In this document: in pieces, positions 4,610 through 31,353 of the stretch
How positions within the stretch are numbered: position 1 is the first letter of the stretch
How the letters are laid out: each line of letters opens with the position of its first letter
NCBI RefSeq assembly: GCF_000016745.1
Contig: NC_009483.1
Span: 3,840,001 to 3,872,000, forward strand
Length of the DNA: 32,000 bases
Direction: 5' to 3'
Source: Geotalea uraniireducens Rf4
GTDB taxonomy: Bacteria > Desulfobacterota > Desulfuromonadia > Geobacterales > Geobacteraceae
Notes under the pieces: generated by a model
Seen by the model: only the letters and a program-made list of their open reading frames with translations
Told to the model about the DNA's origin: nothing
The model's database searches: none
Translations under genes and position numbers: made by a program

Positions 4610-4647
4610 CTGTTCCTCCTGAATTTATTGATATAATCGACAACTCG

Positions 4648-6186
4648 TCAAGACATCATGATATATCCCTGTTTCGACAACCACTCTATATCATCGAGGA
4701 ATCTTGTCGTATTACCGATTGCCGGTTTCAATGACGGTGCATATTGGGCAACCAGATTGGGAATATCTTTAAGTTTAAGACCATAGAATGGTCCAAATCC
4801 CGGAACGAGAACATATCCACTGGATTTTTGCGTTGAGACGGTTTTGCCATTAACTGCGACCGTATCCAGGATCAGATAGCGGCGAGACATTTCCATCCTT
4901 GTCTCAGAGAGGCTGAACTTGTGTTTTTCCGTTTTAAGTATATTCCCGTCATCGACTGCAGATGTGAAAACTCTTTCGATTTCAGAAATAGTGTAACCGT
5001 ACTCTGCCAGCGCCTTTACAGCTTGGGTCTTATCGCCATCGAACTTCAACAAAGCGTGTTCAAGTTCCAGATCTGTCAGAAAGCCTATCCGTTGAAGTTC
5101 ACGGCGCAACCTGATCGGCGCGCTTTTGATCTGGAAAAACGAATGGGTATTTTTCATTTGGAGGAGGGTTTTCAGATCGCCGTTAAGAGAAGCAAAATAA
5201 CCGGCGCCGTCAACATATTCAACAAACAAATGATTTACCGTAAAACGCCTTGCAGATGAGGTCTGATCTACGTTTTTATGACTGACACTGCCGGAATCTC
5301 CTGCATAAAACTGACATTGAACGAACAGTTTAGGCTGCCATCCGACAGTGTTGTAGGGAAGGATAAAATCGTATTTCCTAACTTTGGTCCGATCTGAGCT
5401 GTCGGCTTTTTTTCTTGCGGCAGCAGTATTAATCACTACATCATCATTATTGAAATCTACTCCTTGCTTCATACCCCAATCAGTCATCATTGTTCGCAAC
5501 AGCTGTTCGGGATTATGCCCCCCTGAAGCGGTAACCGATCCCCTAATCTTGAAAATAACCAGGGGCGATAATAGGGATTTCTCTTTGTTGTAAGGTTTTA
5601 GAGAATAGTAACAGTTACCGATGGCCCATAGTTGAGACAAGTAAGCGTCATCTGAAAGAGTAAATTCGAAAAACTCTCGTAACAGTTCAGTCTGTATGTC
5701 CGTGTACTTTTCTAAATTAGCGACAATTGTCATAAATTGTTCTGCTTTTATGACCCTGGGCCAATCCAGATAATTCAAGCATCCTTTACTCACAACAGGC
5801 ATACTGTTAAGTATATTTTTTTGTCGGATGTAAATCGGCAACTGGCACTTGCAGTTATTGTCGGATTTTCCGCTAACAAGATAGATAAGGTCTGATATCG
5901 ACGTGAGAAATTTCTTTGCCGATTTCTTATCGGAGTTAGCTATTTCCACCTCTACTGCTTCGGCTATTTTGCTTATGTCAGGCCGTTTTTTCAGCGAAAA
6001 TTTGTCGGTCGTCCTTCCCAAAACCTCAAAAATTCGCACAGCGCTCTCCATCTCCTTATTAAAGCGCTCCGTATCGCGAATTTCACCCAGCGTCGGCGTC
6101 AACCATATATCGAACTCCAACAAGGCATCTGTGCTGCTAATCGGTGTTAACGGCAATTTCATGATTTGCATCTCCACGGTTAGCAT
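4648..6186 (-). CDS. Uncharacterised 504-512 aa protein, probable nuclease/effector partner of the overlapping DNA methyltransferase
   Basis: This is a long clean ORF in the AT-rich island, on the same strand as the MTase, and its 5' end overlaps the MTase 3' end. Candidate starts are ATG 6186, 6171 and 6162. The last is 9 nt after GGAG, so it is preferred and gives 504 aa. The central segment KYDFILPYNTVGWQPKLFVQCQFYAGDSGSVSHKNVDQ resembles, from memory, the D..(E)x(N/K)FYSGSGSK core of DpnII/MboI-type PD-(D/E)xK endonucleases. I did not recognise any other family. Confidence 0.7.
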   Translation of the reverse strand: MLTVEMQIMKLPLTPISSTDALLEFDIWLTPTLGEIRDTERFNKEMESAVRIFEVLGRTTDKFSLKKRPDISKIAEAVEVEIANSDKKSAKKFLTSISDLIYLVSGKSDNNCKCQLPIYIRQKNILNSMPVVSKGCLNYLDWPRVIKAEQFMTIVANLEKYTDIQTELLREFFEFTLSDDAYLSQLWAIGNCYYSLKPYNKEKSLLSPLVIFKIRGSVTASGGHNPEQLLRTMMTDWGMKQGVDFNNDDVVINTAAARKKADSSDRTKVRKYDFILPYNTVGWQPKLFVQCQFYAGDSGSVSHKNVDQTSSARRFTVNHLFVEYVDGAGYFASLNGDLKTLLQMKNTHSFFQIKSAPIRLRRELQRIGFLTDLELEHALLKFDGDKTQAVKALAEYGYTISEIERVFTSAVDDGNILKTEKHKFSLSETRMEMSRRYLILDTVAVNGKTVSTQKSSGYVLVPGFGPFYGLKLKDIPNLVAQYAPSLKPAIGNTTRFLDDIEWLSKQGYIMMS

Positions 6187-7927
6187 GAATCCAGAATTTT
6201 TCGTCTATCTGTTTGGAAATTTTGTGCAGGCATTTGAATTGCGACGATTGAGCCAATACGTCATTAACCGTATGCAGGGTCAGTTCACCGTCTGTTTTGC
6301 CGTTTTCCACACTGTATTGAAAGGTAAACCACTCTACGGTTAATGCGTCAAGAATATCGCTGCTATGGGCAAAACCTTTCTTGTACACGATTTCATGCGT
6401 CAACCGCAAAGTTTCGTCAAAGACATTAAATAGCCCCTTGCTGAAAACATGCCTCTTAATGGAACCATCGGGTTTTCTGAAGTGGATAAGGACATCGCTT
6501 TTAGGGGCTTTGGTCATAACGCTTTCCGTTAGCGACGGTGCGCTCCTCCGTATCGGAGCAACCACAACCAACTCAAAGCCGCTGTCCTTACAGGCTGAAA
6601 TTAATGAGTTCCAAACTTTGATATCCTTGTTATTGAACGTCACGCTCATCCAGCGCCCCGGCTTTAGAAGACGATAAGCTTCGGCAAATACTTTTTTCAA
6701 CCCTGCTGCATAGTCGACTTCAGACTTGTTCCGGTAGGGATTAAAGGCAACTTCCGCATCGAGGTCTTCATGGAATCCCAGCCAGAGATTCCACAGCATA
6801 GACAGTTCGCCGTACTGAATCCCCTCGCCGCCGTAAGGTGGATCGGTAAGGATGTAATCCACGGAATTATCCTGAAGTGAGGCAAATTTCTTCCGCGAAT
6901 CATGGATCAGCACTTTACCCCAATTTGCGGCATTATCAGGCAGGACTTCTTTTAATTCATTTACCGCAGCTTTTGTCCGCACCAATCTATTTTTAAAATA
7001 ATGAAGCACATTAAGTTCCTGCCAATCGGCCGGTAGCCAGTAACAGTTAATTTTCCAGCTCGGGCCGCCTGCGTTTTCCTTATAATCCGCGATCATCCTC
7101 GACGATTGAGCGAGATTCGCTGTAAAGGTAAGCTTTAGAAACCTCTGACAAACTTCATCTTCCACCTGAGAAATCAATGACCAGAGCCGAGACAATACCA
7201 GCAGGTTACGGGGAGTAAACAGGTCGGAAAACTTTTCGATTTTCCGTCTTTTCAGCTTTTGCATCTCCCAGCCGTAATACATTTCCATATCCGGACAGGA
7301 AACTTCATACTGAGCTGATGCTTTCCGCAAATCCTCATCCGTAGGCAGATGTTCCAGTTTCTTTTTACATTTAGTGCAGTTATAACGCACTGAGACAAGT
7401 TCTTCTTTATGCCATCCAAACGATCTTGGTATAACTTCTGCTCCACACAAGATACAGCGGCTTCCGTAAATATCATATAAGTGAGGCAGTAACTCAGCCA
7501 TTATTGTAGCCGCAGCATGGTCAATCTCTTCACATTTATTGCCGGCTATCAATGTTTCGGTTAAATAAACGGCAAAAGGGTTAAGATCAAAACCGACAGC
7601 TTTTCTTTTTTCAATAATAGCTTCAACAACAGTAATACCACTGCCACAAAAGGGATCTAAGACCAATTCCCCTTCTTTTGAAAAAAATGAAATACACTTG
7701 CTAAATACATTTGCCGGTTTTTTCCCCCAGTATTTATGTAAATTATGCCTAGCTGGGAAGGTATCTGGAATAAGGATTCCAAGATGGGTATTGATGATGT
7801 CCGCATCGATGCTGGAGATATCAAGTTCCCCACTCTGTTGAGCATTCACATAAGACGACAAACTGCCCATGAGCGGTAACTCTTGCTGATCGTACCTGCT
7901 GTATTTCCTGCGGCTTGCTGTGGGCAT
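6137..7927 (-). CDS. DNA methyltransferase (DPPY catalytic motif, N6-adenine/N4-cytosine type) with an internal CxxC..CxxC zinc ribbon
   Basis: The ORF is 596 aa. The AdoMet motif I, LVLDPFCGSGITVVEA, is preceded by HKYWGKKP. Then comes CILC-x22-CTKC, and motif IV, DYILTDPPYGGEGIQYGELSMLWNLWL, lies about 260 aa downstream. So the order is motif I, then insert, then motif IV. This resembles a shortened COG1743/DUF1156-type Zn-ribbon methylase. No clear SD precedes ATG 7927. Confidence 0.85.
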   Translation of the reverse strand: MPTASRRKYSRYDQQELPLMGSLSSYVNAQQSGELDISSIDADIINTHLGILIPDTFPARHNLHKYWGKKPANVFSKCISFFSKEGELVLDPFCGSGITVVEAIIEKRKAVGFDLNPFAVYLTETLIAGNKCEEIDHAAATIMAELLPHLYDIYGSRCILCGAEVIPRSFGWHKEELVSVRYNCTKCKKKLEHLPTDEDLRKASAQYEVSCPDMEMYYGWEMQKLKRRKIEKFSDLFTPRNLLVLSRLWSLISQVEDEVCQRFLKLTFTANLAQSSRMIADYKENAGGPSWKINCYWLPADWQELNVLHYFKNRLVRTKAAVNELKEVLPDNAANWGKVLIHDSRKKFASLQDNSVDYILTDPPYGGEGIQYGELSMLWNLWLGFHEDLDAEVAFNPYRNKSEVDYAAGLKKVFAEAYRLLKPGRWMSVTFNNKDIKVWNSLISACKDSGFELVVVAPIRRSAPSLTESVMTKAPKSDVLIHFRKPDGSIKRHVFSKGLFNVFDETLRLTHEIVYKKGFAHSSDILDALTVEWFTFQYSVENGKTDGELTLHTVNDVLAQSSQFKCLHKISKQIDEKFWIHANRGDANHEIAVNTD

Positions 7928-7960
7928 ATATATTCCATGTTTACATAAAAGGTTTAAGAC

Positions 7961-13660: not shown

Positions 13661-15871
13661 TCACCCTTCAATCTTGAACATGCCCATCTCGTTGCGAAGA
13701 ATCTCTATCTGACGGAACAAGCCGGAAACAGCTTCATCCATCGCCCCTGTCGCTTCAAGGTTGATATGGGTTGATTGCTGAATATCCTCAACAGCGACCA
13801 CAATCTGCTCGCTTCCGCGATTTTGCTCGTCACAGGCTCGCTTGATCTGTTGGATCATATCTGTAATATTTTCTGTGGACTGGGCGATAAAATTACCGAC
13901 ATTGCTCTGTTCACGGGTCGAAGACCTCACCTGGGTCGTGAGGGTCTTCATTTTCTCCACCGCGGTCATAATGAGCTCGCTCCCCTGTCCCTGCTCACGG
14001 GTAGCCTTGGCGATCTGACCGACCATTTCGGAGACCTGCTCCATGGCATCACGGATCATCTGACTTCCCCTCGCCTGCTCGACGGTAGCGCGGGCTATTT
14101 CTTCCACCTGCTCCGTTGCCTTCTTCACACCCGATACGATCTTGTTCAACGCCTCGCCCGATTTCTGCGACAACAGTTCACCGTCTGCAATGCTTTTTTC
14201 CGCCTGGTCAATGGCATTAACCGCCCGGTGAGTTTCGTCCTGTACCGCCTTTATAACCATCGCAATCTCGCGGGTGGAGCTGCTGGTGCGCTCGGCAAGC
14301 TCCTTTATCTCATCTGCGACAACGGCAAAACCCTTGCCGTGCTCACCGGCCTGGGCAGCAATAATAGCCGCATTCAGCGCCAGGAGGTTGGTCTGCTCGG
14401 CAACCTCGTCGATTACCGAAAGGATTGTCCCGATATCATTGGCCCTGCCGGAGAGGGTGTCAATAACTTCATAGGTGATGCGCGACGAACGTTTAATTTC
14501 ATTGATGCCGGCGATGGTAGCCTCCACCGCTTCTTTGCCGGTCTCGGCATCCTTGCGGACCGCATCGGATATGGCGGCGGTCTCCATGGCATTTTTCTCC
14601 ACCTGCTTGATGCTGCTGTCCATCTCCATGACCGATGATGCGGTGGTGGTCGAAGCATCCAGGAGGCTGACGACGCCGTTACCCACCTGCTTGATGGAAG
14701 CAGCCATCTGGAGGATGGATGAGCTCACCTCATCGACAGAGTGCGACAGGGTTTCAACATTCTGGGCCACCTCTTCAACGCTGGCTGCCATCTCCAGAAT
14801 CGATGAGGAACTTTCCGAAGCGGATAGGGAAAGACTGTCAACACCCTGGGAAACCCCTTTGACTGATGCGTTGATCTGGCTCACCGCCGCCGAGGTATTG
14901 TTGACGCTCTCTGCCTGCAATTTGGCCGTATTCACGACTTTTTGCGAAGATTCGGTAATAGTGCCGGATAAATGGGTCAATTCAGCCGCGGACTTGTTGA
15001 CATTGCCGACCATTCCGGACAATTTCTCCACCATTACATTGAAATCGCTCCCCAACTTGCCAAGCTCGTCCCCTGAGTCGATTTCAAGCTTGGCGGTAAG
15101 GTCCCCCTCCGCGCCGTTATCCAGGGCTCTGGCCATTCTATTGATGCGGTTGACGATGTTCTTCGTGGTCTTGAGCCCCAATAAAAGCCCAAGCAGGACG
15201 GCGGCGATGATTACCACAACAAAGGCAATTCCCGCAGAACTCTGAATTTCGCGGACCTGCTTGTCCGCCTTGGTCATCTGGATACCCACCTCAACAAGCA
15301 GGTCGTCGGCATCGGCTTTGGCTTTTTCTATGGCAGGATTTATGTCGTCTTCCGTGAGACGATGCAATTTTTCATCGGCAAGGGCAGCCATGGCCGCCTG
15401 ATCGACGACGCCGGCTTTGAGCCCTTTCAGCAACGCTTCCTTGCGGGCGAGAAGCTCGTCGGCAATCTTCTCGACCTCTTCCCAACTGGCAAGGGCCGCC
15501 TGGGTCCGTTTTTCGATAACGCTCCCATGCTGCGCAGGCTTGATCCCCAGCTTCGCATTGCCTTTCAACATGATGTTGCACTGGCTTCTGAAGAGATCCC
15601 GCTTCATCCGGTAATCTTCGGCATACTCTTCAAATTTTTCCATTTCGGCACGCACCAGCGCCGCCTGCATGAGACTGACATGACAATATTTCTGCGTTAC
15701 CCCCATGAGCAGAACCAGTTTCTGCTGGCTGGCCAGATTCTGCATGATGTTCTGAATCTGGTCGCCGACCCGCCTCATGCTCCAGGAGCCGAAAGCGCCG
15801 GTTATGGCGACAATCAGGGCCATTATCATAAAAGAACCGACAAGACGATGACTAAGTTTCAAGTTTTTCAC
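13661..15871 (-). CDS. Methyl-accepting chemotaxis protein with an expanded cytoplasmic signalling domain
   Basis: The ORF is 736 aa with a GTG start after AGAGGA. It has two TM segments flanking a ~190-aa periplasmic helical sensor, then HAMP, then a ~445-aa signalling domain with the conserved hairpin tip [41 protein letters not shown]. An internal triplicated segment ([14 protein letters not shown] / [14 protein letters not shown] / [13 protein letters not shown]) is consistent with the 40+24H class described for Geobacter MCPs (from memory). Confidence 0.92.
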
Positions 15872-15947: not shown

Positions 15948-16307
15948 TCAATGTTCAGCCTCGTTCAGGAGATAGTTCATAAGATCGACGGTCGCCTTGA
16001 CCTCCGGCTTGCTCATGTTCGAATCCGGTTTACGCAACATCTTGATGCCGTACGCTTTGGTGGCGCTCCGGTCAAAGAGCTGGCCGGAGATGGGCGCAAT
16101 CCCCGTCTGGATTGCTACTATGGTTCTTTCCAGGGTGTGGCATTTGACGCACTTGACCCTCATTATCTCGTAATTGGCTTTCATGGCAGGAGGGAATGCG
16201 GACGGATCCAGGCGCATGTTGTCGCCCTTGCCGATAACCTTGATACCGGCATGGGCAGCAGTACTGAACAAACAGAGCAGAACAAGAAGAATAACGGTTT
16301 TTTCCAT
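15948..16307 (-). CDS. Small secreted monohaem c-type cytochrome (119 aa precursor)
   Basis: It has the signal peptide MEKTVILLVLLCLFSTAAHA and a single CVKCH. The GGAGGA RBS is 8 nt upstream of the ATG. The gene starts 34 nt after the stop of the cytochrome-porin gene. Confidence 0.8.
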   Translation of the reverse strand: MEKTVILLVLLCLFSTAAHAGIKVIGKGDNMRLDPSAFPPAMKANYEIMRVKCVKCHTLERTIVAIQTGIAPISGQLFDRSATKAYGIKMLRKPDSNMSKPEVKATVDLMNYLLNEAEH

Positions 16308-16341: not shown

Positions 16342-17694
16342 TCAGAAACTATACGTCACACCAAGCAGGGTAATTCTCGAAATCACTGCCGGGGCATCTT
16401 CATACCGGTATTCAAGGGTGACCTTCACATTCTGCAAAGGGGTATACGCAATGGCGGGGATATAACGACGCACGATGCCGACACCGTCATCCTGGTGCTC
16501 ATAGCGAAACAGACCGACGGCATTAACAGGCGAACCGAGGTAGTATTCCGCCTCGGAAGCCAGCACGACGGAATCCCTTTCAAGGGGAACCGTGGCGAAA
16601 TCCGGGTTGTCGTCCCGCCCTTTTACGCCGCTCAATTTGACTCTCAAACGTTTATACTGGAGGTCCATGTCGCCACCGGCGCGATAAAATCTGTTTTTGG
16701 TGAAGGTATCGGTGTCGTTGATGGTATTGCGACCGAAATAACCATATGTGCCGAACGTCACCGACAGATAGTCCCACACGCTGTCGCTGTCGAGGTCGAC
16801 CGCCGGTTCATTGCCCAGTAAATCGGAACCGCCTACCTTCACCGAAACATGACCATAACCTTCTTTTGCGTTTTGCCCCTTCCGGTCCACAATTCCGCCG
16901 GCGACAAACAGCCTTTTCCAGAGGACGACGTTGGCTTCAAGCGCATCCTGGCTTGATTCCAGGGTGAACGGCGAGCTCCCGACCCGGTACGACAGGGTAG
17001 CCAGGGAGGAGGCGGTCGTAACCTTGTTGTTTTTCTTCCAGAGGCTGAGCTTCGGTTCAAACCTGCCGAATTTCAGGTTTATGGGTGTATCCAGGATGTG
17101 GCGCCACTGCAGAAACAGTTCATGCAGGTTATTGGTGTCGGTGGTGCTGTCCGCATGCGTCGTCAACAGGTATGAGGCAAAAAATCCGAACTTGTCACGG
17201 AAGGCGCCGCCGGCTTGAAAAGCGAAAGTCCGGGTTGAAAAATCGAATTTGTCGCCATCAGCCGCATGCTCGTCATAGACGATGTTTTGCGTTGCCCGGA
17301 AGGAGAGGGGGAGCTGTTCTGGTATGCCGGCAAGCCAGAGTCCCTCGTTTCCTTTATTCTTCGGTTCCTGTGCCTGGTCGTTCTCAACCTTGGAAGTGGC
17401 TGCCTGGGCCTTTAATTTATCGAGCAATTCCGGGTCGCCTTCACCGGCAATGGCAGCGGCAGCAGCTGGAGATGCCGGAGCTTTCGCTTCGGAAGGCTTG
17501 ACCAGCGGAACATAGCTGTTTTTTTGGAAAGCATCCCCGTACTCGTTAAGTTCCGGATAAATTGTATGGCAGGTAGAGCATTCGGTTTTATGCTGACGAC
17601 TAAAAGCAGGAATTGCGTGCGCCTTACCGGCGCTCGTAAGCGTGAAAGCGCCGATCAGAAGCAAAACAAGCTTGATCGTGAATCGGCTTTGCAT
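16342..17694 (-). CDS. Fused monohaem cytochrome c / beta-barrel outer-membrane protein (Cyc2-like architecture)
   Basis: The track ORF starts at GTG 17712. I prefer ATG 17694, 6 nt after AGGAGG. The signal peptide is MQSRFTIKLVLLLIGAFTLTSAGKAHA. CSTCH (nt 17566..17580) begins at mature residue 12. It is followed by an Ala/Pro/Lys-rich linker and then ~340 aa with about 16 amphipathic beta-strand-like segments by eye. The C-terminus ...ITLLGVTYSF fits the BAM beta-signal. Confidence 0.85.
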   Translation of the reverse strand: MQSRFTIKLVLLLIGAFTLTSAGKAHAIPAFSRQHKTECSTCHTIYPELNEYGDAFQKNSYVPLVKPSEAKAPASPAAAAAIAGEGDPELLDKLKAQAATSKVENDQAQEPKNKGNEGLWLAGIPEQLPLSFRATQNIVYDEHAADGDKFDFSTRTFAFQAGGAFRDKFGFFASYLLTTHADSTTDTNNLHELFLQWRHILDTPINLKFGRFEPKLSLWKKNNKVTTASSLATLSYRVGSSPFTLESSQDALEANVVLWKRLFVAGGIVDRKGQNAKEGYGHVSVKVGGSDLLGNEPAVDLDSDSVWDYLSVTFGTYGYFGRNTINDTDTFTKNRFYRAGGDMDLQYKRLRVKLSGVKGRDDNPDFATVPLERDSVVLASEAEYYLGSPVNAVGLFRYEHQDDGVGIVRRYIPAIAYTPLQNVKVTLEYRYEDAPAVISRITLLGVTYSF

Positions 17695-17968
17695 GGATCC
17701 CCTCCTCTGCACATTTCTCAGTTATTCATCAAATTTGCATCGAATACGACGCTAAACGATCATCAATACATTTATGAAAATAATTACATATATTTAGTGC
17801 TTAACACGGTAAAATACTGGCTAGTATTACAATATTGAGCATATGAAGTCAACTTAACATAAATAAGTGCAAGATAATATTAGTAAGCCGATGAGCTTTC
17901 AGATATTTTTTTATACATTTTTGACGACATAAATGGTATAAGGCTCCTAATTAAAGGAGGGTGAGGGG
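17695..17968. promoter_or_regulatory. AT-rich divergent control region between the cytochrome-porin operon and the decahaem cytochrome gene
   Basis: This is 274 nt that looks AT-rich by eye (no count was made). There is an extended -10-like TGGTATAAG at 17934..17942, about 12 nt before the AGGAGG RBS (17955..17960) of the + strand gene. There is a palindrome AATACT-ggct-AGTATT at 17813..17828. On the minus strand there is TTGACT-17-TAATAC at about 17824..17852. None of these is individually decisive. Confidence 0.4.
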
Positions 17969-19750
17969 ATGAAAAATGGATTTTTCACATCATTAATTTT
18001 ACTTTCTCTGCTGATTGCAGTCATGACAGGTTGCGGCAGTGACAATTCAGGAAGCCAGACTGCACTTTCAACCTTTGCTGCCTCAGAAGCATGCATACGC
18101 TGTCATACGACAACTAATAATATTTCTCCGGTTACCGGCATGAACATTGTCGAGGAATGGAAGCTTTCCACCCACAATACCAGCAACGGAGCGAGTTGCA
18201 TTGACTGCCATGGGGAAGGAAACGGTCACCCGAACAGCTGCGGGGTCTGCCATGGCGGCTCTTCACCCGTATCAGCCGGATTCCATAACCCGGAACAGGC
18301 CGGTCTCTGTAACAATTGCCACGGCCCGAATCACCCGGACGACGTTATGATCCTCAATTCGCCGCAGCATTTCGGCAACATGACCGCTAGTTTGCCCAAC
18401 ATCAAGTATCGTGCATCCTTTGTCAGCTCACAATATGTGAGCAATTGCCGCAAATGCCATAATCCCCACAATCCCAGCAGCGCCATCGAGATCGCCCGTC
18501 AGTGGGCTGACAGCGGGCACGGCAACACTCTTGCCGGGGCAAGGACAGCTTACGACTTCAAGACACGCGGCACCTATGAACCAGTAAACCTGTCATTCCA
18601 AAATAATTGTGTTCGTTGTCACACCACGACCGGCTTCATCAACTTTGTCGCTTCAGGCTACAGTGACCAGAGACCGTTCGCAGGTCCACAGTACCCCGTA
18701 GTCCTGTATCCGTCAGTCTCAACCGACAAGACCAAAGAAGTTACCGGATGCAATGCCTGCCACGACGACGGCAAAGGGAACGCCTATAGCTATAAACTTA
18801 GGGCGCTTCCCCAGGTGCGGATCTATTACAACTACTCTTCGGCGAACACCTCACCAACGGTTAAGCTAAACAATATGCCGGTATATTTTCCCGACGCAGG
18901 CCCGTCCAACATATGCATCAGCTGTCATGCAGGGCGCGGCATCGGGCGAATGATCACTGTTGCAGCTGCCAACTTTTTCAACTTTAGTACAAGCACAAGC
19001 ATAAGCGCCCATGATTTCGCCGGCGCCGGAAATCTGTTCCAGCAGAGCGGCTATGAATATAGCGGACGGAGCTATACCTCATCCGCCTTCCTCCATGACG
19101 AGATCGGCTTCAACAACACCAACAGCACCGGCAGCCGCGGTCCCTGCATCACCTGCCACATGAAGAGTGACGAGTCGCACTCTTTTCTACCCGTGACATT
19201 CGATAATCAGCAGGCATCCGATCCGTCTGCCGTAGCAATCGCCGGCATCATCAGCCGTACCTGCTCCAAGTGCCACAACGGCGCCATCCAACCGGCATGG
19301 ACTGCGCAAACCCTTCAGGCGAGGCGAGCGGGATTTCAAGCTGCGCTAGCGATACTTAATGGAGTTCTAGCTCAAAAAAGAGGCAGCACGAAGACCTGGG
19401 AGAAACTTGACGGAGTTATCATAAAAGGAACAGGCCCCAACACCATGGGTGCCAACTTTAATTATGGATTGCTTAAAAATGATTGGGGCGCTTACGCCCA
19501 CAACGACCTCTATGCCAAGCGACTGATCTATGACTCACTTGACTGGCTTTACGACCGCGACTTGGTCTCGAAGACCAACACCGGTGGGTACGCGACTGAC
19601 GTGGAGGCAGCGATCAACGGTGTCACCACGGCAAAAAATCCGTGGAACAGTGCAGTAATATATTCGAGTCCACAGCTGGATGGACCGACCGGCCTGAAAG
19701 CTTTGGCTATCAACTACTTGCTCGGCGGGCCGGGAGGTAACCGTCCCTAG
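17969..19750 (+). CDS. Decahaem c-type cytochrome lipoprotein
   Basis: The ORF is 593 aa. Its lipoprotein signal is MKNGFFTSLILLSLLIAVMTGC. It has ten CxxCH motifs: CIRCH, CIDCH, CGVCH, CNNCH, CRKCH, CVRCH, CNACH, CISCH, CITCH and CSKCH. The last ~150 aa are haem-free. The RBS is strong. Confidence 0.9.
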   Translation: MKNGFFTSLILLSLLIAVMTGCGSDNSGSQTALSTFAASEACIRCHTTTNNISPVTGMNIVEEWKLSTHNTSNGASCIDCHGEGNGHPNSCGVCHGGSSPVSAGFHNPEQAGLCNNCHGPNHPDDVMILNSPQHFGNMTASLPNIKYRASFVSSQYVSNCRKCHNPHNPSSAIEIARQWADSGHGNTLAGARTAYDFKTRGTYEPVNLSFQNNCVRCHTTTGFINFVASGYSDQRPFAGPQYPVVLYPSVSTDKTKEVTGCNACHDDGKGNAYSYKLRALPQVRIYYNYSSANTSPTVKLNNMPVYFPDAGPSNICISCHAGRGIGRMITVAAANFFNFSTSTSISAHDFAGAGNLFQQSGYEYSGRSYTSSAFLHDEIGFNNTNSTGSRGPCITCHMKSDESHSFLPVTFDNQQASDPSAVAIAGIISRTCSKCHNGAIQPAWTAQTLQARRAGFQAALAILNGVLAQKRGSTKTWEKLDGVIIKGTGPNTMGANFNYGLLKNDWGAYAHNDLYAKRLIYDSLDWLYDRDLVSKTNTGGYATDVEAAINGVTTAKNPWNSAVIYSSPQLDGPTGLKALAINYLLGGPGGNRP

Positions 19751-24773: not shown

Positions 24774-27700
24774 CTAAACATCATCAGCAGCGGGTGCCAC
24801 CAGGAGCTTTTTCCGTGAGCGCACCTTTGCCAGCAGCACATCCATGTAGTAGTAGACAACCGGCGTGATGTAGAGGGTCAGCAACTGCGAGGTGAGCAAC
24901 CCGCCGACAACGGCCAGACCCAGTGGCTGACGCGACTCTCCTCCGGCACCTAAACCCATGGCGATTGGCAGCGTTCCCATCAGGGCAGCCATGGTCGTCA
25001 TCATAATCGGCCGAAAACGTACCAGAGCCCCTTCATAAATGGCATCAAGCGGCCGTTTCCCGTCCTTCCTCTCGGCTTCCAGGGCAAAGTCGATCATCAT
25101 GATGGCGTTCTTTTTGACAATGCCGAGCAGCATGATTATCCCGACAAATCCATAGATATTAAGATCGCAGTGAAAGATCATCAGGGTGATCAGTGCCCCG
25201 AAACCGGCGGCCGGCAGTCCGGACAGGATGGTGATCGGGTGAATATAGCTCTCATAGAGAACGCCGAGCACAATGTAGATGACGAAGACGGCCATCACCA
25301 GCAAGATCAGCAGGCCGTTGAATGAGGATTGGAATGCCTGCGCGGTCCCCTGAAAACTGGTACTCACGGTTTGAGGGAGAGCTGTGCGGGCAAGCTCGTC
25401 AACGAGAGTCATTGCATCGCCAAGGGCTAGCCCGGGGCGGAGATTGAACGAGATCGTCACCGCCGGGAGTTGTCCCAGGTGGTTGACCGTCAGCGGGCCG
25501 ATGGTTTTGGTGATGGCAGCTATGGTATCGAGCGGTACAAGCTGTCCGGATTTGCTATGGATGTAAAGCATGCCCAGAGCCGCCGGGTCTCCCTGGTAGA
25601 GCGGATCAAGTTCGAGAATAACCTGATACTGGTTGGTCGTGGCAAATATGGAGGAAACCTGGCGTGAACCGTAGGCATAGGAAAGGGCGTCTTCCACCTG
25701 CATCACGGAGAGCCCCAGGCTGGCCACCTTATCCCGGTTGATTTCCACATGCACCTGCGGATTACTGATCTGCAGGTCGCTCGTTACATCCAGCAACTCG
25801 GGAAGCTCACGCAGCTTTGCCTCAAAGTCACTGGAGGCACGGTACAGTTCATCCGTGTTCTGACCTTGCAGGGTAAACTGGTACTGGCTTTTGGAGGAGC
25901 TGCCCCCTATCTGGATCGAGGGGATATTTTTCAGGAATGTTCGGATACCCGGGACTTTGGCGAGCTTTGGGCGAAGTTCCTGAATGATCTCATCTGCGGA
26001 GAGTTTTCGCTCACTGCGCGGCTTGAGACGGATAAAAAAGCGGCCGGTGTTGCTCGCCCCGCTGCTGCCCATGGATGACATGAATCCGTCGATATTCGGA
26101 TCTTTGGCGATGATGGCAGCGAGTGCTTCCTGGTGAAGCTTCATCTCCGCGAAGGATGTCCCTTGGGCCGCCTCGGTGTCGGCGTTTAGACGTCCGGTGT
26201 CTTCAGTCGGCAGGAATCCCATGGGAATTCTGGTAAACAACCAGCCGGTGACCAGCGTGACAAGTATCGTCAAGACCATGGTTGTCCGACGAAAGCGCAG
26301 GACCTGTTGCAGTGAGCGCTCGTAAAGATTGAGCAAACGGTCGAAGAAGCGTTCCATGAAGAGGTACAGGCGTCCGTGTCGCTCTGCTGCCGGCGGCTTC
26401 AGAAATCGACTGCAAAGCATCGGGGTCAGGGTCAGGGAGACGAAACAGGAGACCAGAATTGCCACGCTGATCGTTATGGCGAATTCGTGCAGGAGACGGC
26501 CAAGTATCCCCCCCATGAACAGTACCGGAATAAAAACCGCCACCAGCGATATGGTCATCGAAATGATGGTAAAGCCGATCTCCTTAGAGCCCTTGAAAGC
26601 AGCCTCCATCGCACTCTCACCCTTTTCCATGTGACGGACGATGTTTTCCAGCATGACTATGGCATCATCCACGACGAAGCCGACCGCCAGGGTCAGGGCC
26701 ATCATGGATATGTTATTGATGGAGAATCCCAGCATATGCATGGCGGAGAACGTACCGACAATTGACATCGGCACTGCCAATGAGGGGATGATGGTGGCGG
26801 ACAAGTTGCGCAGAAAGAGGAAAATCACCATGATGACCAGGCCGATCGTCAAACAGAGGGTGAACTTGACGTCGTGCATCGATTCACGGATCATGTTGGA
26901 CCGGTCAAAAAGAACACTCAGTTCGACTGAGGCCGGCATCTGCGAGCGGAAAGTCGGCAGAAGCTTCTTCACGCTGTCCACCACCTCGATGGTGTTGGTT
27001 CCCGGCTGGCGTTGGACGGCCAGGACTATGGCGCGCGTGTTGTTGTACCAGCTTGCCGTCTTGGTGTTCTCTACGCTGTCAAGGACCTGCCCGACTTCCT
27101 CAAGGCGGATCGGCGAGCCGTCCCGGTAGGCCACCACCATCGAGCGGAAGGATGCCGCATTGAACATCTGTCCATTGGCTTCGATGGTGAACGCTTGCTT
27201 TTTCCCGTCCAGCATCCCGGTCGGCATGTTGACGTTCGCATCGCCGATCGCCGTCGCCACTTCGTCGATGCCGATCTGCCGGGAGGCCAGGGCTTTGGGA
27301 TCGAGTTGGGCACGCACGGCATACTTCTGCGAACCGTAAACCGACACCTGGGCCACGCCGCTGATCGTAGAGATACGTTGCGAGATGAGGGTCTGCGCAT
27401 ACTCGTCAACCGCGGAAAGAGGCAATGTGGGAGAGCTGAGCGCCAGGTAAAGGATCGGCTGATCGGCAGGATTCACCTTCCGGAAAGACGGCGGCGACGT
27501 CATGTTCGCCGGTAACTGGCGAATAGCAAGTGAGATCGCCGCCTGCACGTCCTGAGCGGCCGCATCAATATCGCGGTCAAGGTTGAACTGGATCGTGATC
27601 CTGGTCGAGCCGATGCCATTCGTTGAAGTCATCGAGTCGACGCCGGCAATGGTCGAGAACTGCTTCTCCAGCGGTGTGGCGACCGCCGATGCCATGGTGT

Positions 27701-27872
27701 CTGGATTGGCGCCAGGGAGGTTGGCGCTGACCTGGATGGTCGGGTAGTCAACTTTCGGCAGGTCGTTCACCGGAAGCAAGCGGTACGATGCCACACCGAA
27801 GATGAAGATGGCGATCATGATCAACGAGGTCATGATCGGCCGGCGAACGAAAATCTCGGCGATATTGATCAC
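24774..27872 (-). CDS. RND efflux permease (HAE1 family, MdtB/MdtC-like)
   Basis: The ORF is 1032 aa. Its GTG start overlaps the adaptor gene stop (GTGA). The sequence MINIAEIFVRRPIMTSLIMIAIFIFGVASYRLLPVNDLPKVDYPTIQVSANLPGANPDTMASAVATPLEKQF is the canonical AcrB/MdtC N-terminus. Confidence 0.95.
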   Translation of the reverse strand: MINIAEIFVRRPIMTSLIMIAIFIFGVASYRLLPVNDLPKVDYPTIQVSANLPGANPDTMASAVATPLEKQFSTIAGVDSMTSTNGIGSTRITIQFNLDRDIDAAAQDVQAAISLAIRQLPANMTSPPSFRKVNPADQPILYLALSSPTLPLSAVDEYAQTLISQRISTISGVAQVSVYGSQKYAVRAQLDPKALASRQIGIDEVATAIGDANVNMPTGMLDGKKQAFTIEANGQMFNAASFRSMVVAYRDGSPIRLEEVGQVLDSVENTKTASWYNNTRAIVLAVQRQPGTNTIEVVDSVKKLLPTFRSQMPASVELSVLFDRSNMIRESMHDVKFTLCLTIGLVIMVIFLFLRNLSATIIPSLAVPMSIVGTFSAMHMLGFSINNISMMALTLAVGFVVDDAIVMLENIVRHMEKGESAMEAAFKGSKEIGFTIISMTISLVAVFIPVLFMGGILGRLLHEFAITISVAILVSCFVSLTLTPMLCSRFLKPPAAERHGRLYLFMERFFDRLLNLYERSLQQVLRFRRTTMVLTILVTLVTGWLFTRIPMGFLPTEDTGRLNADTEAAQGTSFAEMKLHQEALAAIIAKDPNIDGFMSSMGSSGASNTGRFFIRLKPRSERKLSADEIIQELRPKLAKVPGIRTFLKNIPSIQIGGSSSKSQYQFTLQGQNTDELYRASSDFEAKLRELPELLDVTSDLQISNPQVHVEINRDKVASLGLSVMQVEDALSYAYGSRQVSSIFATTNQYQVILELDPLYQGDPAALGMLYIHSKSGQLVPLDTIAAITKTIGPLTVNHLGQLPAVTISFNLRPGLALGDAMTLVDELARTALPQTVSTSFQGTAQAFQSSFNGLLILLVMAVFVIYIVLGVLYESYIHPITILSGLPAAGFGALITLMIFHCDLNIYGFVGIIMLLGIVKKNAIMMIDFALEAERKDGKRPLDAIYEGALVRFRPIMMTTMAALMGTLPIAMGLGAGGESRQPLGLAVVGGLLTSQLLTLYITPVVYYYMDVLLAKVRSRKKLLVAPAADDV

Positions 27873-29004
27873 TTTCTCCCCTCCGCCGCCGGGTTGATTT
27901 TCGCCTCCACCTTGGCGCCTGGAACCAGGCGCAGTTGGCCGTTGACAACCACGGTCTCTCCGGGCGCAACACCTTTCTCGATAACGCTTGCCCCCCCCGA
28001 TGCCGCGCCGACAGTTACCGGCCGCATCTCCACCGTCTTGTCAGGCTTCACTACATATATGAACTGCCCCTGTTGGCTGATCTGGATTGCCTGGGTCGGG
28101 ACGACGACGGCATTCTGCAGGGAGGAGAGTGTCATCACCACATCGACAAACTGTCCCGGCCAGAGTTTTCTGGATCTGTTGGCAAAAATCCCGTTCAGCT
28201 TGATGGTGCCGGTAGCGGCATTCACCATATTGTCCAGAAAACTTATCGTCCCGATTTCTTTACTGCCGGGTTCGTCAGGGATAACTGCCTCTATCTGCAA
28301 CTCGCCGCCAGCCATGGCCCTCTTTACCTCAGCGAGTTTTTTTCCGGGATTGAAAAGGTTACGTAGATCGGGTTTATCTGATTGATCATCACCAGCGGTA
28401 CATCGTTGGCCTTCGTAAGATTGCCCGGTTGCAGCAATAGTTTCCCGGTCCGACCGGAGATCGGAGAACGGATGTAGCAATAGCCAAGCTGGATTTTAGC
28501 GTTTTTGACTGCTGCACGGTCAGCGACAACAGTCGCAGCAAATGATTCAGCGTTGGCCTGCAATTGATCAAACTGATCCTGAGTAACGATGCCATCCTTG
28601 AGCATCAACTCGTAGCGGCGAGCCTGATCATGAGCGAACTTCGACTGCGCCAGATCCTTGGTTAGAGCGGCCTCGCATTGACTAAGCGTCGCTTCGAACG
28701 ATTCCGGGGCAAGGGTGATGAGCAATGAGCCCTTCTGCACGTCACTACCCTCCTTGAAATGAACGAGGGCAATCTGTCCGCTTACCTGCGATTTGATTGC
28801 GACGCTGGTATATGGCTCAATGTTGCCGATAGCTTTAACTTGCACCGGCACGTCTTTCCGGATCGCTATTGCCACCGTTACCGGCACCGGAGGCTTCGTT
28901 TTGGGCTTCTCTTTTTTGGCGGCGCAAGCGCCGCAGACAAATAATGATGCCGCCAGATATCCACTAATGAGCAGTTTTACTACGGTTATTATTTTACGTT
29001 TCAT
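27869..29004 (-). pseudogene. RND membrane-fusion (periplasmic adaptor) lipoprotein, reading frame broken at an A7 run
   Basis: The N-terminal part is in track ORF 28324..29058. I prefer ATG 29004 after GAGGGTGGA, giving MKRKIITVVKLLISGYLAASLFVCGAC..., with the lipoyl and hairpin domains up to ...INPIYVTFSIPEKNSLR*. The rest is in frame -1 (track ORF 27869..28480, real from ...KKLAEVKRAMAGGELQIEAVIPDEP... to ...AAEGRK*). The switch point is the A run at 28337..28343. The total of 1136 nt is one base short of 379 codons. Confidence 0.85.
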
Positions 29005-29252
29005 TTCCACCCTCATTTTTGTGTTATTGATGACGGGTATATCCTTATAAGAATGCAAGCGGATGGATGCCTTGCAGTGTCGAAAAACCCGCTCTTTCCC
29101 TTCAACAGCTATAATCTAGCAAAAAAAATATGGATAAAATATGAAATAAATGAGGAAATGCGGATAACGGAGATATTTACAGGTAACGTTTATGCTATAA
29201 GGGAAGCAACTTGATGCGGGGCATCAATTATCTATTTCTTGAGAGGAATGCG

Positions 29253-30679: not shown

Positions 30680-31353
30680 GTGGAACAATACTGATAGTGG
30701 AGGACGAAGAGAAACTCGCTGCGCTGCTGGCGGATTACCTGAAGCAGTCGGGGTTCGATTCCGAGTGGCTGGCGGATGGACAAGCTGTGGTACCGTGGGT
30801 CAAGAGGCACGGGCCGGATCTCATCCTGCTCGATTTAATGCTTCCCGGGCGCCGTGGCCTCGATATCTGCAAGGAGATCCGTTCCTTCTCTGATGTTCCG
30901 ATTATCATGATCACTGCCCGTATTGAGGAAATAGACCGTTTGCTCGGCTTGGAACTGGGCGCAGATGACTACATCTGCAAACCGTTCAGCCCGCGGGAGG
31001 TTGTCGCCAGAGTCAAATCGTTGCTGCGTCGCACCGGCGGCCGACTAACCGCCTCAGTTCAGGGTTTGATCCTTGACACGTCACGATATCAGGCTACATT
31101 GCACGGTCACGTCCTGGACCTGACCGTCGTCGAATTCAAACTCCTGCACTTTCTCTTCTCAAATCCAGGGCAGATCTATTCACGCTCCCAGCTTATGCAT
31201 AGAATTTACCCTGACGAACGGATCGTAAGCGACCGGACCATCGACAGCCATGTAAAAAAACTGCGCAAAAAAATATCCTTGGCGGCACCTGATCAGGAAC
31301 TCATTCATTCGGTGTACGGGATCGGGTATAAATTTGAAGCATCACAGGAGTAA
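30676..31353 (+). CDS. OmpR-family response regulator (BaeR-like)
   Basis: The sequence is MSGTILIVEDEEKLAALLADYLKQSGF...DLILLDLMLPGRRGLDICKEIR...winged helix ...HSVYGIGYKFE. ATG 30676 overlaps the kinase TGA (ATGA) and follows GGAGAGAGGAG. The track ORF starts upstream at 30637. Confidence 0.93.
   Translation: MSGTILIVEDEEKLAALLADYLKQSGFDSEWLADGQAVVPWVKRHGPDLILLDLMLPGRRGLDICKEIRSFSDVPIIMITARIEEIDRLLGLELGADDYICKPFSPREVVARVKSLLRRTGGRLTASVQGLILDTSRYQATLHGHVLDLTVVEFKLLHFLFSNPGQIYSRSQLMHRIYPDERIVSDRTIDSHVKKLRKKISLAAPDQELIHSVYGIGYKFEASQE

What the first reader, a model, noticed from the sequence alone, without database searches (positions are those of the whole stretch)
16342..17694. Haem-bearing beta-barrel (Cyc2-like cytochrome-porin fusion) in what looks like an iron-reducer genome
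Seen: a cleavable signal (AHA|IPAF). CSTCH begins at mature residue 12, within IPAFSRQHKTECSTCHTIYPELNEYGDAFQKNSY. A ~55-aa Ala/Pro/Lys/Glu linker follows. After that come alternating-hydrophobicity strands such as FDFSTRTFAFQAGGAF, LHELFLQWRHIL, YLSVTFGTYGYFG and VKVTLEYRYED, and a terminal YSF. Established: signal + one CxxCH + a 16-strand porin in ~440-480 aa defines the Cyc2 family of Fe(II) oxidisers (Acidithiobacillus ferrooxidans Cyc2, Mariprofundus Cyc2). Inference: this is a Cyc2-type protein in a Geobacter-like background. That would imply direct haem-in-porin electron exchange with soluble Fe or another small redox species. The similarity is architectural and judged from memory. It is not an alignment.
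Basis: partly seen in the sequence, partly recalled or inferred. Interest (0 to 1): 0.8.

Follow-up and report, generated by a model that had tools for sequence, protein, structure and literature searches.

The report
Cyc2-type haem porin in Geobacter
This gene of the iron-reducing bacterium Geotalea uraniireducens encodes an outer-membrane pore with one haem group fused to it. It is a real relative of the Cyc2 iron oxidases, a link already flagged in Geobacter by the FeGenie tool, and it always sits beside a ten-haem surface cytochrome and a small periplasmic cytochrome, which hints at a three-part electron conduit.

Summary
Window 16342..17694 (-) encodes a 450-aa protein, 100% identical to G. 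uraniireducens Rf4 ABQ27442/A5G6M4. It has a signal peptide, its only two cysteines in one CSTCH motif, an A/P/K/E-rich stretch and a predicted 16-strand barrel whose best structural matches are OprP and OprO.

The Cyc2 interpretation holds:
- The Cyc2 signature is present (AIPAFSRQH-3 aa-CSTCH-3 aa-PEL), with two substitutions against the published consensus.
- CxxCH is invariant in 43 homologues and in 113 superfamily representatives.
- Profile comparisons link it to FeGenie-scored Cyc2 of Sideroxydans (cluster 1), to cluster 2, and most strongly to cluster 3.

It is not new as an idea. FeGenie (2020) scored the G. bemidjiensis orthologue (45% identity) as Cyc2 cluster 3 and discussed cyc2 in Geobacter.

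What I found no description of is the context. In 81 of 85 related loci, all with Geobacterales-type or unclassified titles, a ~120-aa monohaem cytochrome gene follows directly. A decahaem lipoprotein cytochrome gene lies immediately upstream. It is divergent here and co-directional, operon-like, in the more distant lineages.

Best reading: a Cyc2-type outer-membrane electron gate working with these two partners. Direction, substrate and haem incorporation are untested.

The parts
16342..17694 (-). cyc2-like gene: 450-aa fused monohaem cytochrome-porin (ABQ27442.1 / WP_011940105.1 / A5G6M4); coordinates include the stop codon
   Evidence: The ORF is listed. It is 100% identical to the G. uraniireducens protein.
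17701..17707 (-). Shine-Dalgarno GAGGAGG, 6 nt upstream of the ATG at 17694; supports the 450-aa start over the GTG at 17712
   Evidence: Read directly from the sequence.
17614..17694 (-). Signal peptide, residues 1-27 (MQSRFTIKLVLLLIGAFTLTSAGKAHA|IPAF)
   Evidence: Judged by inspection: a basic n-region, a hydrophobic core and an AHA cleavage motif. The model places a helix at residues 2-21. No dedicated signal-peptide predictor was available.
17548..17616 (-). Cyc2-type haem signature, residues 27-49: AIPAFSRQH-KTE-CSTCH-TIY-PEL; the CxxCH itself is at 17566-17580
   Evidence: The motif definition is from Keffer et al.. F31, R33, C39, C42 and H43 are invariant in 43 homologues. R33, C39, C42 and H43 are at 100%, and A27, P29 and F31 at 95-97%, in 113 superfamily representatives.
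17323..17508 (-). Spacer between the haem domain and the barrel, residues 63-124; A/P/K/E-rich, holds a ~28-aa clade-variable insert with a predicted helix at residues 88-104
   Evidence: Composition and spacing statistics are. The region has low pLDDT, and the helix is predicted at 88-104.
16345..17322 (-). 16-strand beta-barrel porin domain, residues 125-450, ending in YSF
   Evidence: AlphaFold2 predicts 16 strands over residues 130-449. Foldseek's top matches are OprP and OprO. Sequence hits are weak: Pfam Porin_O_P below threshold and OprO by profile at E 0.006.
15948..16307 (-). Co-directional downstream gene, 34 nt after the cyc2-like stop: 119-aa secreted monohaem cytochrome (CVKCH; ABQ27441.1 / A5G6M3); proposed periplasmic partner
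   Evidence: CVKCH, M90 and M98 are invariant in 5 orthologues. A homologue follows the cyc2-like gene in 80 of the 81 related loci that have room downstream; in L030 it lies upstream and inverted. It has no Pfam, NCBIfam or PDB family.
17969..19750 (+). Divergent upstream gene: 593-aa decahaem lipoprotein cytochrome (ABQ27443.1 / A5G6M5); proposed outer-surface partner
   Evidence: It has 10 CxxCH motifs; nine are fully invariant and one (C91/C94/H95) is at least 90% conserved in 41 homologues, as is the lipobox Cys22. Pfam Mtrc-MtrF_II-IV_dom matches at E 3.6e-18. A homologue is adjacent in 81/85 loci and co-directional in the more distant lineages. The AlphaFold2 model has pTM 0.80, and its best PDB match is OcwA 6i5b, which is weak.
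17695..17968 (.). AT-rich divergent intergenic region between the cyc2-like and decahaem genes, with promoter-like hexamer pairs on both strands
   Evidence: The region was read. The consensus scan gave 7 sites against 3.4 expected, four of which fall between 17823 and 17902. Consensus matches are not evidence of function.
13661..15871 (-). Downstream methyl-accepting chemotaxis protein (context only; probably not part of the module)
   Evidence: It carries HAMP and MCPsignal domains. It is kept in only 33/85 loci, together with trpA and accD.

Best explanation
The gene encodes an outer-membrane monohaem c-type cytochrome fused to a 16-strand OprO/P-like porin. It belongs to the Cyc2 superfamily, in a clade found here only in contigs with Geobacterales-type or unclassified titles, and is closest to FeGenie 'cluster 3'.

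Proposed mechanism, all inferred:
- After Sec export and haem attachment at C39/C42, the barrel inserts in the outer membrane.
- The small N-terminal haem domain sits at or inside its periplasmic mouth.
- This single haem relays electrons across the outer membrane. The periplasmic partner is the 119-aa monohaem cytochrome encoded directly downstream.
- The outside partner is the decahaem lipoprotein cytochrome encoded next door and/or a small soluble species such as Fe2+ or chelated Fe3+ entering the pore, as proposed for Cyc2.
- In this Fe(III)/U(VI) reducer the likely net direction is outward, but the module could run either way.

Shown: the architecture, the homology and the conserved three-gene linkage. 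Not shown: haem incorporation, localisation, physical contacts, substrate and direction.
For: Architecture:
- The two cysteines form the single CxxCH.
- The model has 16 strands, and OprP and OprO are the top structural matches. These are the same templates Keffer et al. report for Cyc2 PV-1.

Signature: AxPxF-R with Arg five residues before CxxCH, and PxL four residues after it, both as defined. The conserved positions are invariant in 43 homologues and at 84-100% in 113 superfamily representatives.

Homology:
- The profile search finds 2965 representatives at E<=1e-3. The distant full-length ones carry AIPAFARKYxTSCxTCH..PKLNxFG.
- The A1 profile scores FeGenie-labelled Cyc2 sequences as follows:
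  - G. bemidjiensis: 550 bits
  - cluster 3: 45-123 bits
  - clusters 1 and 2: 30-34 bits
- hhalign against Sideroxydans-type cluster 1 gives 97.7% probability over 116 columns, reaching into the first barrel strands. Against cluster 2 it gives 98% over 51 columns.
- FeGenie's own HMM scored the G. bemidjiensis orthologue at 66.2 bits against a 27.3 cut-off.

Partners:
- A small-cytochrome homologue is detected in 81/85 related loci, directly downstream of the cyc2-like gene in 80 of them. In L030 it lies upstream and inverted. The four loci without one are contigs that end within 150 nt of the cyc2-like gene.
- The decahaem cytochrome is adjacent in 81/85 loci.
- In co-directional loci the three genes are packed with gaps of about 4 to about 80 nt.
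- The haem motifs and the lipobox Cys are conserved.
- Distant superfamily members also sit next to respiratory electron-transfer genes.
Against: - There is no experimental datum for this protein or any Geobacterales orthologue. Literature searches by name and by accession found none.
- The cytochrome domain and spacer are modelled with low confidence (pLDDT <50 for residues 21-83 and 100-117), so the haem position is unknown.
- One haem cannot bridge a ~4-nm membrane unless partners approach closely from both sides.
- Gram-negative lipoproteins face the periplasm by default. Surface exposure of the decahaem protein is assumed by analogy.
- In the window the decahaem gene is divergent, not co-transcribed.
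- The decahaem model does not match MtrC structurally; its best match is OcwA at E 0.013.
- No conserved second axial ligand (His or Met) was found across the superfamily.
- Synteny alone does not prove a physical complex.
Confidence: 0.6

Rival explanations
1. It is a canonical Cyc2: a stand-alone outer-membrane Fe(II) oxidase. It takes electrons from dissolved Fe2+ entering the pore and passes them inward to the small periplasmic cytochrome, for nitrate-dependent or microaerobic Fe(II) oxidation or for Fe(II) detoxification. The decahaem neighbour is functionally unrelated.
For: All biochemically tested family members are Fe(II) oxidases: A. ferrooxidans Cyc2, Leptospirillum Cyt572 and Mariprofundus Cyc2 PV-1. 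Keffer et al. predict that monohaem Cyc2 acts on dissolved Fe2+. A periplasmic cytochrome gene next to cyc2 is also seen in Rhodoferax and Dechloromonas, where it is cyc1. FeGenie notes that G. metallireducens performs nitrate-dependent Fe(II) oxidation and has a cyc2 gene. Detoxification has also been suggested for Cyc2.
Against: The decahaem gene is adjacent in 81/85 loci and sits in one tight co-directional block in many lineages. That is hard to explain if it is unrelated. The hosts are known as Fe(III) reducers. [quoted passage not shown]
Confidence: 0.25
2. It is a redox or Fe(II) sensing front end for chemotaxis. The haem porin and small cytochrome report extracellular redox state to the methyl-accepting chemotaxis protein encoded downstream.
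For: The MCP gene follows the small cytochrome gene in the window and in 33/85 related loci. That Geobacter is chemotactic towards Fe(II) is my own background knowledge and was not checked here.
Against: The MCP is absent from the module in more than half of the loci. Where it is present, it travels with the housekeeping genes trpA and accD, which suggests inherited gene order. Its periplasmic domain has no CxxCH.
Confidence: 0.07
3. It is an ordinary anion or phosphate porin of the OprO/OprP type. The N-terminal CxxCH is incidental and binds no haem.
For: The only Pfam and PDB sequence similarities are to Porin_O_P and OprO. Some sources name homologues 'phosphate-selective porin'.
Against: The Pfam score is below the gathering threshold (16.8 against 20.9). 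CxxCH and the flanking Cyc2 signature are invariant across 43 close and 113 distant relatives. The protein's only cysteines are the haem-binding pair. Two cytochrome genes are conserved neighbours.
Confidence: 0.03

Closest known systems
Cyc2 fused cytochrome-porins of Fe(II) oxidisers (A. ferrooxidans Cyc2, cluster 2; Mariprofundus Cyc2 PV-1 and Sideroxydans ES-1 Cyc2, cluster 1)
   Same: - A signal peptide and one N-terminal CxxCH.
- The AxPxF-R(5 aa)CxxCH(3 aa)PxL signature.
- A 16-strand OprO/P-like barrel in a protein of ~400-500 aa.
- Profile-profile homology across the cytochrome domain and, for cluster 1, into the first strands.
- A periplasmic cytochrome gene nearby.
   Different: - Only 30-34 bits with my profile, confined to the N-terminal ~60 residues.
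- The signature reads FSRQH instead of FAR[Q/K][T/Y].
- There is a ~28-aa insert before the barrel.
- The host is an Fe(III) reducer.
- The neighbours are a decahaem lipoprotein and a monohaem cytochrome rather than cyc1 (dihaem), as in Rhodoferax and Dechloromonas.
- The function is untested.
FeGenie 'Cyc2 cluster 3' (includes Leptospirillum Cyt572 and many homologues in taxa not known to oxidise iron)
   Same: This is the closest group by sequence. FeGenie-labelled cluster 3 proteins score 45-123 bits with my profile, and one aligns at full length at 24% identity, E 4e-27. The G. bemidjiensis orthologue is assigned to this cluster by FeGenie.
   Different: Most of the distant relatives recovered by the profile search, which include the group closest to FeGenie cluster 3, carry FARKY..TSCxTCH and the fixed 57-residue spacing. 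The clade found here has its own signature and its own partner genes. I could not obtain the Cyt572 sequence, so that comparison was not made.
Porin-cytochrome conduits (MtrCAB of Shewanella; OmaB-OmbB-OmcB and Ext clusters of Geobacter)
   Same: A gene cluster that combines an outer-membrane beta-barrel, a lipoprotein multihaem cytochrome and a periplasmic cytochrome. The decahaem protein matches Pfam MtrC/MtrF domains II/IV.
   Different: The barrel has 16 strands, against the 26 quoted for Mtr. The membrane-spanning haem carrier is one haem fused to the barrel rather than a separate inserted multihaem protein. The periplasmic partner has one haem. The decahaem model resembles OcwA weakly rather than MtrC.
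OprO/OprP phosphate- and diphosphate-selective porins of Pseudomonas
   Same: These are the best structural matches to the barrel (E ~1e-11, TM 0.53-0.58). There is weak sequence similarity around the NLKFGRFEP segment.
   Different: They share 12% identity, and the Pfam score is below threshold. OprO and OprP have no haem domain. The pore-lining residues were not compared.

Membership tests
Cyc2 fused cytochrome-porin family (Keffer et al. 2021; FeGenie) | N-terminal signal peptide for export | tested here: met
   Judged by inspection: MQSRFTIKLVLLLIGAFTLTSAGKAHA|IPAF, and the model has a helix at residues 2-21. No SignalP-type tool was available.
Cyc2 fused cytochrome-porin family (Keffer et al. 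2021; FeGenie) | Exactly one CXXCH, near the N-terminus | tested here: met
   The single motif is at residues 39-43 and holds the only two cysteines. It is invariant in 43 homologues and 113 representatives.
Cyc2 fused cytochrome-porin family (Keffer et al. 2021; FeGenie) | AXPXFAR[Q/K][T/Y] motif with Arg five residues before CXXCH | tested here: inconclusive
   The target reads AIPAFSRQH. Seven of nine positions match and the spacing is correct, but Ser replaces Ala and His replaces Thr/Tyr. The strict PXFAR[Q/K][T/Y] filter used for the Keffer tree would reject it. Close homologues vary at these positions (FAR/FTR/FSR; H/Y/N). The G. bemidjiensis orthologue, which has the identical motif, passed FeGenie's HMM.
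Cyc2 fused cytochrome-porin family (Keffer et al. 2021; FeGenie) | PXL motif four residues after CXXCH | tested here: met
   The target reads CSTCH-TIY-PEL. P47 is nearly invariant and L49 invariant in the 43 homologues.
Cyc2 fused cytochrome-porin family (Keffer et al. 2021; FeGenie) | Length of at least 365 aa with a 16-strand porin structurally like OprO/OprP | tested here: met
   The protein is 450 aa. The model has 16 strands, and Foldseek's top matches are 2o4v and 4rjw.
Cyc2 fused cytochrome-porin family (Keffer et al. 2021; FeGenie) | Score above cut-off with a FeGenie Cyc2 cluster HMM | not testable with these tools
   The HMMs are not available here. As a proxy, FeGenie's published output gives the G. 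bemidjiensis orthologue 66.2 bits against 27.3 for Cyc2_repCluster3. That orthologue is 45% identical to the target, scores 550 bits with the A1 profile, and a homologue of the decahaem neighbour is encoded in the same genome (P0320).
Cyc2 fused cytochrome-porin family (Keffer et al. 2021; FeGenie) | Detectable sequence homology to accepted Cyc2 proteins | tested here: met
   The A1 profile scores FeGenie cluster 3 at 45-123 bits and clusters 1 and 2 at 30-34 bits. hhalign gives 97.7% probability (E 1.6e-12) against cluster 1 and 98% (E 1.5e-13) against cluster 2. For clusters 1 and 2 the homology covers mainly the cytochrome domain.
Cyc2 fused cytochrome-porin family (Keffer et al. 2021; FeGenie) | Covalently bound haem and Fe(II)-oxidising activity | not testable with these tools
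   This needs biochemistry. No report was found for any Geobacterales member.
OprO/OprP phosphate-selective porins (Pfam PF07396) | Pfam Porin_O_P score at or above the gathering threshold | tested here: not met
   The score is 16.8 bits against a cut-off of 20.9, covering residues 145-221 only. Only the fold is shared.
Porin-cytochrome (Mtr/Pcc) conduits | A large (20-26 strand) porin sheathing a separate periplasmic multihaem cytochrome | tested here: not met
   The barrel has 16 strands and carries a fused single haem. The neighbouring periplasmic candidate has one haem.
Porin-cytochrome (Mtr/Pcc) conduits | Gene cluster that includes an outer-membrane lipoprotein multihaem cytochrome | tested here: met
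   A decahaem lipoprotein gene is adjacent in 81/85 loci. The lipobox Cys and ten CxxCH motifs are conserved (nine invariant, one at >=90%). Surface exposure was not tested.

The most novel reading that the evidence does not exclude
In Geobacterales, a Cyc2-type haem porin is the membrane-spanning core of a previously undescribed, minimal three-protein extracellular electron conduit. The chain runs from a periplasmic monohaem cytochrome, through the haem fused to a 16-strand barrel, to a surface decahaem lipoprotein. If so, a Cyc2 scaffold thought to handle only dissolved Fe2+ can be wired to a multihaem cytochrome and so to solid or macromolecular electron acceptors or donors.
Probability: 0.35. 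Interest if true: 0.75.

Novelty: new member of a known kind. Interest (0 to 1): 0.5.

Why it matters
Cyc2 is the most widely used genetic marker for microbial iron oxidation. Its presence in dedicated Fe(III)/U(VI) reducers means the marker cannot be read as 'iron oxidiser' without context. FeGenie's authors acknowledge this for cluster 3.

If the conserved trio really forms a conduit, three things follow:
- It would add a much smaller alternative to the Mtr and Pcc complexes.
- It would extend the Cyc2 scaffold beyond dissolved Fe2+.
- It would give a genetically tractable test in cultured Geobacterales species that carry the module, such as G. uraniireducens and G. bemidjiensis, of which direction cluster-3 Cyc2 proteins run.

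It may also explain part of the extracellular electron transfer capacity of the subsurface and paddy-soil Geobacterales. The model species G. sulfurreducens had only a barrel-less hit in FeGenie's output, so it may not share this module.

Tried and rejected
- **Family libraries.** Pfam and NCBIfam gave no family for the target, only a sub-threshold Porin_O_P hit.
- **Solved structures.** PDB searches with the single sequence and with the profile found no solved Cyc2, only OprO weakly.
- **Names of distant relatives.** Looking up ten distant profile hits to find FeOB names returned only unnamed metagenomic proteins. I obtained accepted Cyc2 sequences from the FeGenie supplement instead. They are cut at ~400 aa there, so C-terminal strands were not compared.
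- **Is the decahaem neighbour an MtrC-type protein?** Pfam says its domains II/IV are related. The fold search gave only a weak OcwA match and NrfA-type noise, so I do not call it MtrC-like.
- **His35 as distal haem ligand.** I considered that His35 (Tyr in 90% of the superfamily) makes a low-potential bis-His haem. I rejected this because the position varies (H/Y/N) among close homologues.
- **A conserved second His or Met.** No such residue appears across the superfamily. H282 is invariant only within the close clade.
- **The MCP as a haem sensor.** It has no CxxCH.
- **Literature.** Searches by accession (A5G6M4, ABQ27442, WP_011940105 and those of the neighbours) found nothing. I could not derive the Gura_ locus tag, so published transcriptome and proteome tables were not checked.
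- **G. sulfurreducens and G. metallireducens.** Whether they have the trio could not be settled. The single genome-contig scan kept only the best 80 of 102 loci, and neither species was among them.
Full report
**What is there.** The finding corresponds to an ORF at 16342..17712 (-). A GAGGAGG box lies 6 nt upstream, and the 450-aa product is 100% identical to a Geotalea (Geobacter) uraniireducens protein on a 5.14-Mb contig. Its accessions are ABQ27442.1, WP_011940105.1 and UniProt A5G6M4, and it is annotated only as 'hypothetical protein' or 'cytochrome c domain-containing protein'. The window is therefore from the Fe(III)/U(VI) reducer G. uraniireducens Rf4 or a near-identical strain.

**Check of the observation.** The protein has only two cysteines, both in CSTCH.
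- In an alignment of 43 homologues at 51-87% identity, C39, C42, H43, F31 and R33 are invariant.
- AlphaFold2 on that alignment gave pLDDT 69.6 and pTM 0.68, with 16 beta-strands over residues 130-449. The haem domain and spacer are low-confidence.
- Foldseek against the PDB ranks OprP (2o4v, E 1.3e-11) and OprO (4rjw) first. These are the templates Keffer et al. report for Cyc2 PV-1.
- The 'linker' needs a correction. The His-to-barrel spacing is almost fixed at 57 residues in 84 distant relatives and is 85 here. Only about 28 residues are therefore an insert, A/P/K/E-rich and including a predicted helix at residues 88-104 (DPELLDKLKAQAATSKV).

**Is it a Cyc2?** General libraries are silent. 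Pfam gives only Porin_O_P below threshold, NCBIfam gives nothing, and no Cyc2 structure exists in the PDB.

Keffer et al. define the family by a signal peptide, one CXXCH, an AXPXFAR[Q/K][T/Y] motif with Arg five residues upstream, PXL four residues downstream, and a 16-strand OprO/P-like porin of at least 365 aa. The target reads AIPAFSRQH-KTE-CSTCH-TIY-PEL. Spacing and seven of nine motif positions match. Ser replaces Ala and His replaces Thr/Tyr.

A profile search of 1.84 billion representatives found 2965 relatives at E<=1e-3. The distant, full-length ones read AIPAFARKYxTSCxTCH..PKLNxFGEA, have one CxxCH, are ~400-500 aa long and mostly end in Phe. Across 113 of them the conserved core is A27, P29, F31, R33, C39, T41, C42, H43, P47, G53 and F56, plus scattered barrel Gly, Tyr and Glu.

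To tie this to accepted Cyc2 proteins I took sequences from the FeGenie supplementary output. My profile scored them as follows.

| FeGenie-labelled sequence(s) | Score with A1 profile | Region matched |
|---|---|---|
| G. bemidjiensis (cluster 3) | 550 bits | full length |
| Other cluster 3 (four sequences) | 45-123 bits | N-terminal domain; barrel also in one |
| Cluster 1 (Sideroxydans ES-1) | 32-34 bits | N-terminal domain only |
| Cluster 2 (Rhodoferax, Dechloromonas) | 30-34 bits | N-terminal domain only |

Profile-profile comparison gave 97.7% probability (E 1.6e-12, 116 columns, reaching the first strands) against cluster 1, and 98% (E 1.5e-13) against cluster 2.

FeGenie's own Cyc2_repCluster3 HMM scored the G. 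bemidjiensis protein at 66.2 bits against a cut-off of 27.3. That protein is 45% identical to the target and has the same AIPAFSRQHKTECSTCH. I could not run the HMM on the target itself.

**Is it new?** Not as an idea.
- FeGenie (PMC7005843) states that G. sulfurreducens, G. bemidjiensis and R. ferrireducens encode cluster 3 cyc2, and that G. metallireducens has a cyc2 gene. [quoted passage not shown]
- Cyc2 homologues in Fe(III)-reducing taxa were also noted in humic-lake metagenome-assembled genomes.
- Keffer et al. call cluster 3 function 'most uncertain'.
- I found no experiment on any Geobacterales member, and no paper naming this protein.

**Context, the part I found no description of.** Directly downstream, 34 nt away on the same strand, is a 119-aa secreted protein with one CVKCH (15948..16307). 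CVKCH, M90 and M98 are invariant in five orthologues. It has no Pfam, NCBIfam or PDB family.

Divergently upstream is a 593-aa lipoprotein with ten CxxCH motifs (17969..19750). Nine motifs are invariant and one is at least 90% conserved in 41 homologues, and the lipobox Cys is invariant. It has a significant Pfam MtrC/MtrF domain II/IV match.

Five loci fetched through homologues show the same arrangement. A scan of GTDB species genomes gave 102 relatives. The best 80 all carry Geobacteraceae, Geomonas, Citrifermentans, Oryzomonas, Desulfuromonadales-type or unclassified deltaproteobacterial titles. A tblastn survey of all 85 loci showed:
- A small-cytochrome homologue is detected in 81 loci. 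It follows the cyc2-like gene directly in 80 of them; in L030 it lies upstream and inverted.
- The four loci without one are contigs that end within 150 nt of the cyc2-like gene.
- A decahaem homologue lies immediately upstream in 81. It is divergent in the closer group and co-directional in the 40-48% identity group.
- In eight co-directional loci the three genes are packed with gaps of about 4 to about 80 nt, which looks like an operon.
- The MCP, trpA and accD that follow in the window are kept in only 33 loci, so they are probably inherited gene order.

More distant superfamily members sit next to other respiratory genes: a Rieske/cytochrome b cluster in one case and a class I cytochrome in another.

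[quoted passage not shown] I could not verify that it is this decahaem family. If it is, the haem porin next door was overlooked. The decahaem model (pTM 0.80) matches OcwA only weakly and not MtrC.

**Mechanism.**
- *Shown:* the architecture, the family relationship and the conserved three-gene linkage.
- *Inferred:* the barrel sits in the outer membrane with the haem domain at or in its periplasmic mouth. The small cytochrome is the periplasmic partner. On the outside, electrons are exchanged with the decahaem lipoprotein and/or with soluble iron in the pore.
- *Open:* direction, substrate, haem ligation (no conserved second His or Met) and surface exposure of the lipoprotein.
- *Main rival:* a canonical stand-alone Fe(II) oxidase. 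A sensing role via the MCP and a haem-less porin are unlikely.

**Verdict.** The protein is a new member of a known kind whose orthologue was already flagged in the literature. The conserved trio raises a testable and moderately novel hypothesis.

Noticed in passing
window 4000-8000 (ORFs 4648..6186 - and 6137..7927 -): A low-GC island (0.44-0.48 against 0.52-0.61 elsewhere) lies between an rmlD-like gene and lptD. It encodes a 596-aa DNA methylase (N6_N4_Mtase) and a 512-aa protein with no Pfam match. It looks like an inserted restriction-modification-type module.
   Followed up: partly
window 13661..15871 (-): A methyl-accepting chemotaxis protein (HAMP and MCPsignal domains, weak 4HB/TarH sensor, no CxxCH) lies directly downstream of the small cytochrome. 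It is kept in 33/85 related loci together with trpA and accD. This is probably inherited gene order, but a link to Fe(II)/redox taxis is not excluded.
   Followed up: partly
FeGenie Data Sheet S4, G. sulfurreducens PCA ORF NC_002939.5_1044 (not in the window): This ~241-aa protein carries the Cyc2 N-terminal haem signature (MSAFARKYGMQCDGCH..PKLNEFG), then a Pro/Ala-rich tail and no barrel. FeGenie called it Cyc2 cluster 3 although it is shorter than 365 aa, and my profile hits it at 49.5 bits. It is a stand-alone Cyc2-type cytochrome domain of unknown role.
   Followed up: no
L003:4634-4915 (+) (Geoanaerobacter/Geobacter pelophilus): A 93-aa PpcA/cytochrome c7-like gene is inserted between the decahaem gene and the cyc2-like gene, co-directional with the latter.
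   Followed up: no
L030 (uncultured Geoanaerobacter MAG): This locus is an exception to the synteny. The small cytochrome gene and an MCP fragment lie upstream and inverted (1428-1081, 227-6) instead of downstream of the cyc2-like gene.
   Followed up: no
L037, L081, L067, L074, L078, L013: the two ORFs upstream of the decahaem gene: In co-directional loci, a 321-aa DUF4388 protein and a 249-aa protein with no Pfam match repeatedly precede the trio on the same strand. Whether they belong to the module is unknown.
   Followed up: partly
L086 and L087 (distant Cyc2-superfamily members P0217 and P0191): P0217 sits divergently from a Rieske / cytochrome b / c-type cytochrome cluster. P0191 is followed by two unannotated ORFs and a Cytochrom_C protein, and is flanked by sigma-54 two-component regulators. 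Partners of Cyc2-like proteins therefore differ by lineage.
   Followed up: no
window 24774..29058 (-) and 29211..31353 (+): An AcrB-type RND pump (1032 aa) with a membrane-fusion-like gene lies next to a HAMP histidine kinase and an OmpR-type response regulator. This is an ordinary efflux and two-component cluster.
   Followed up: no
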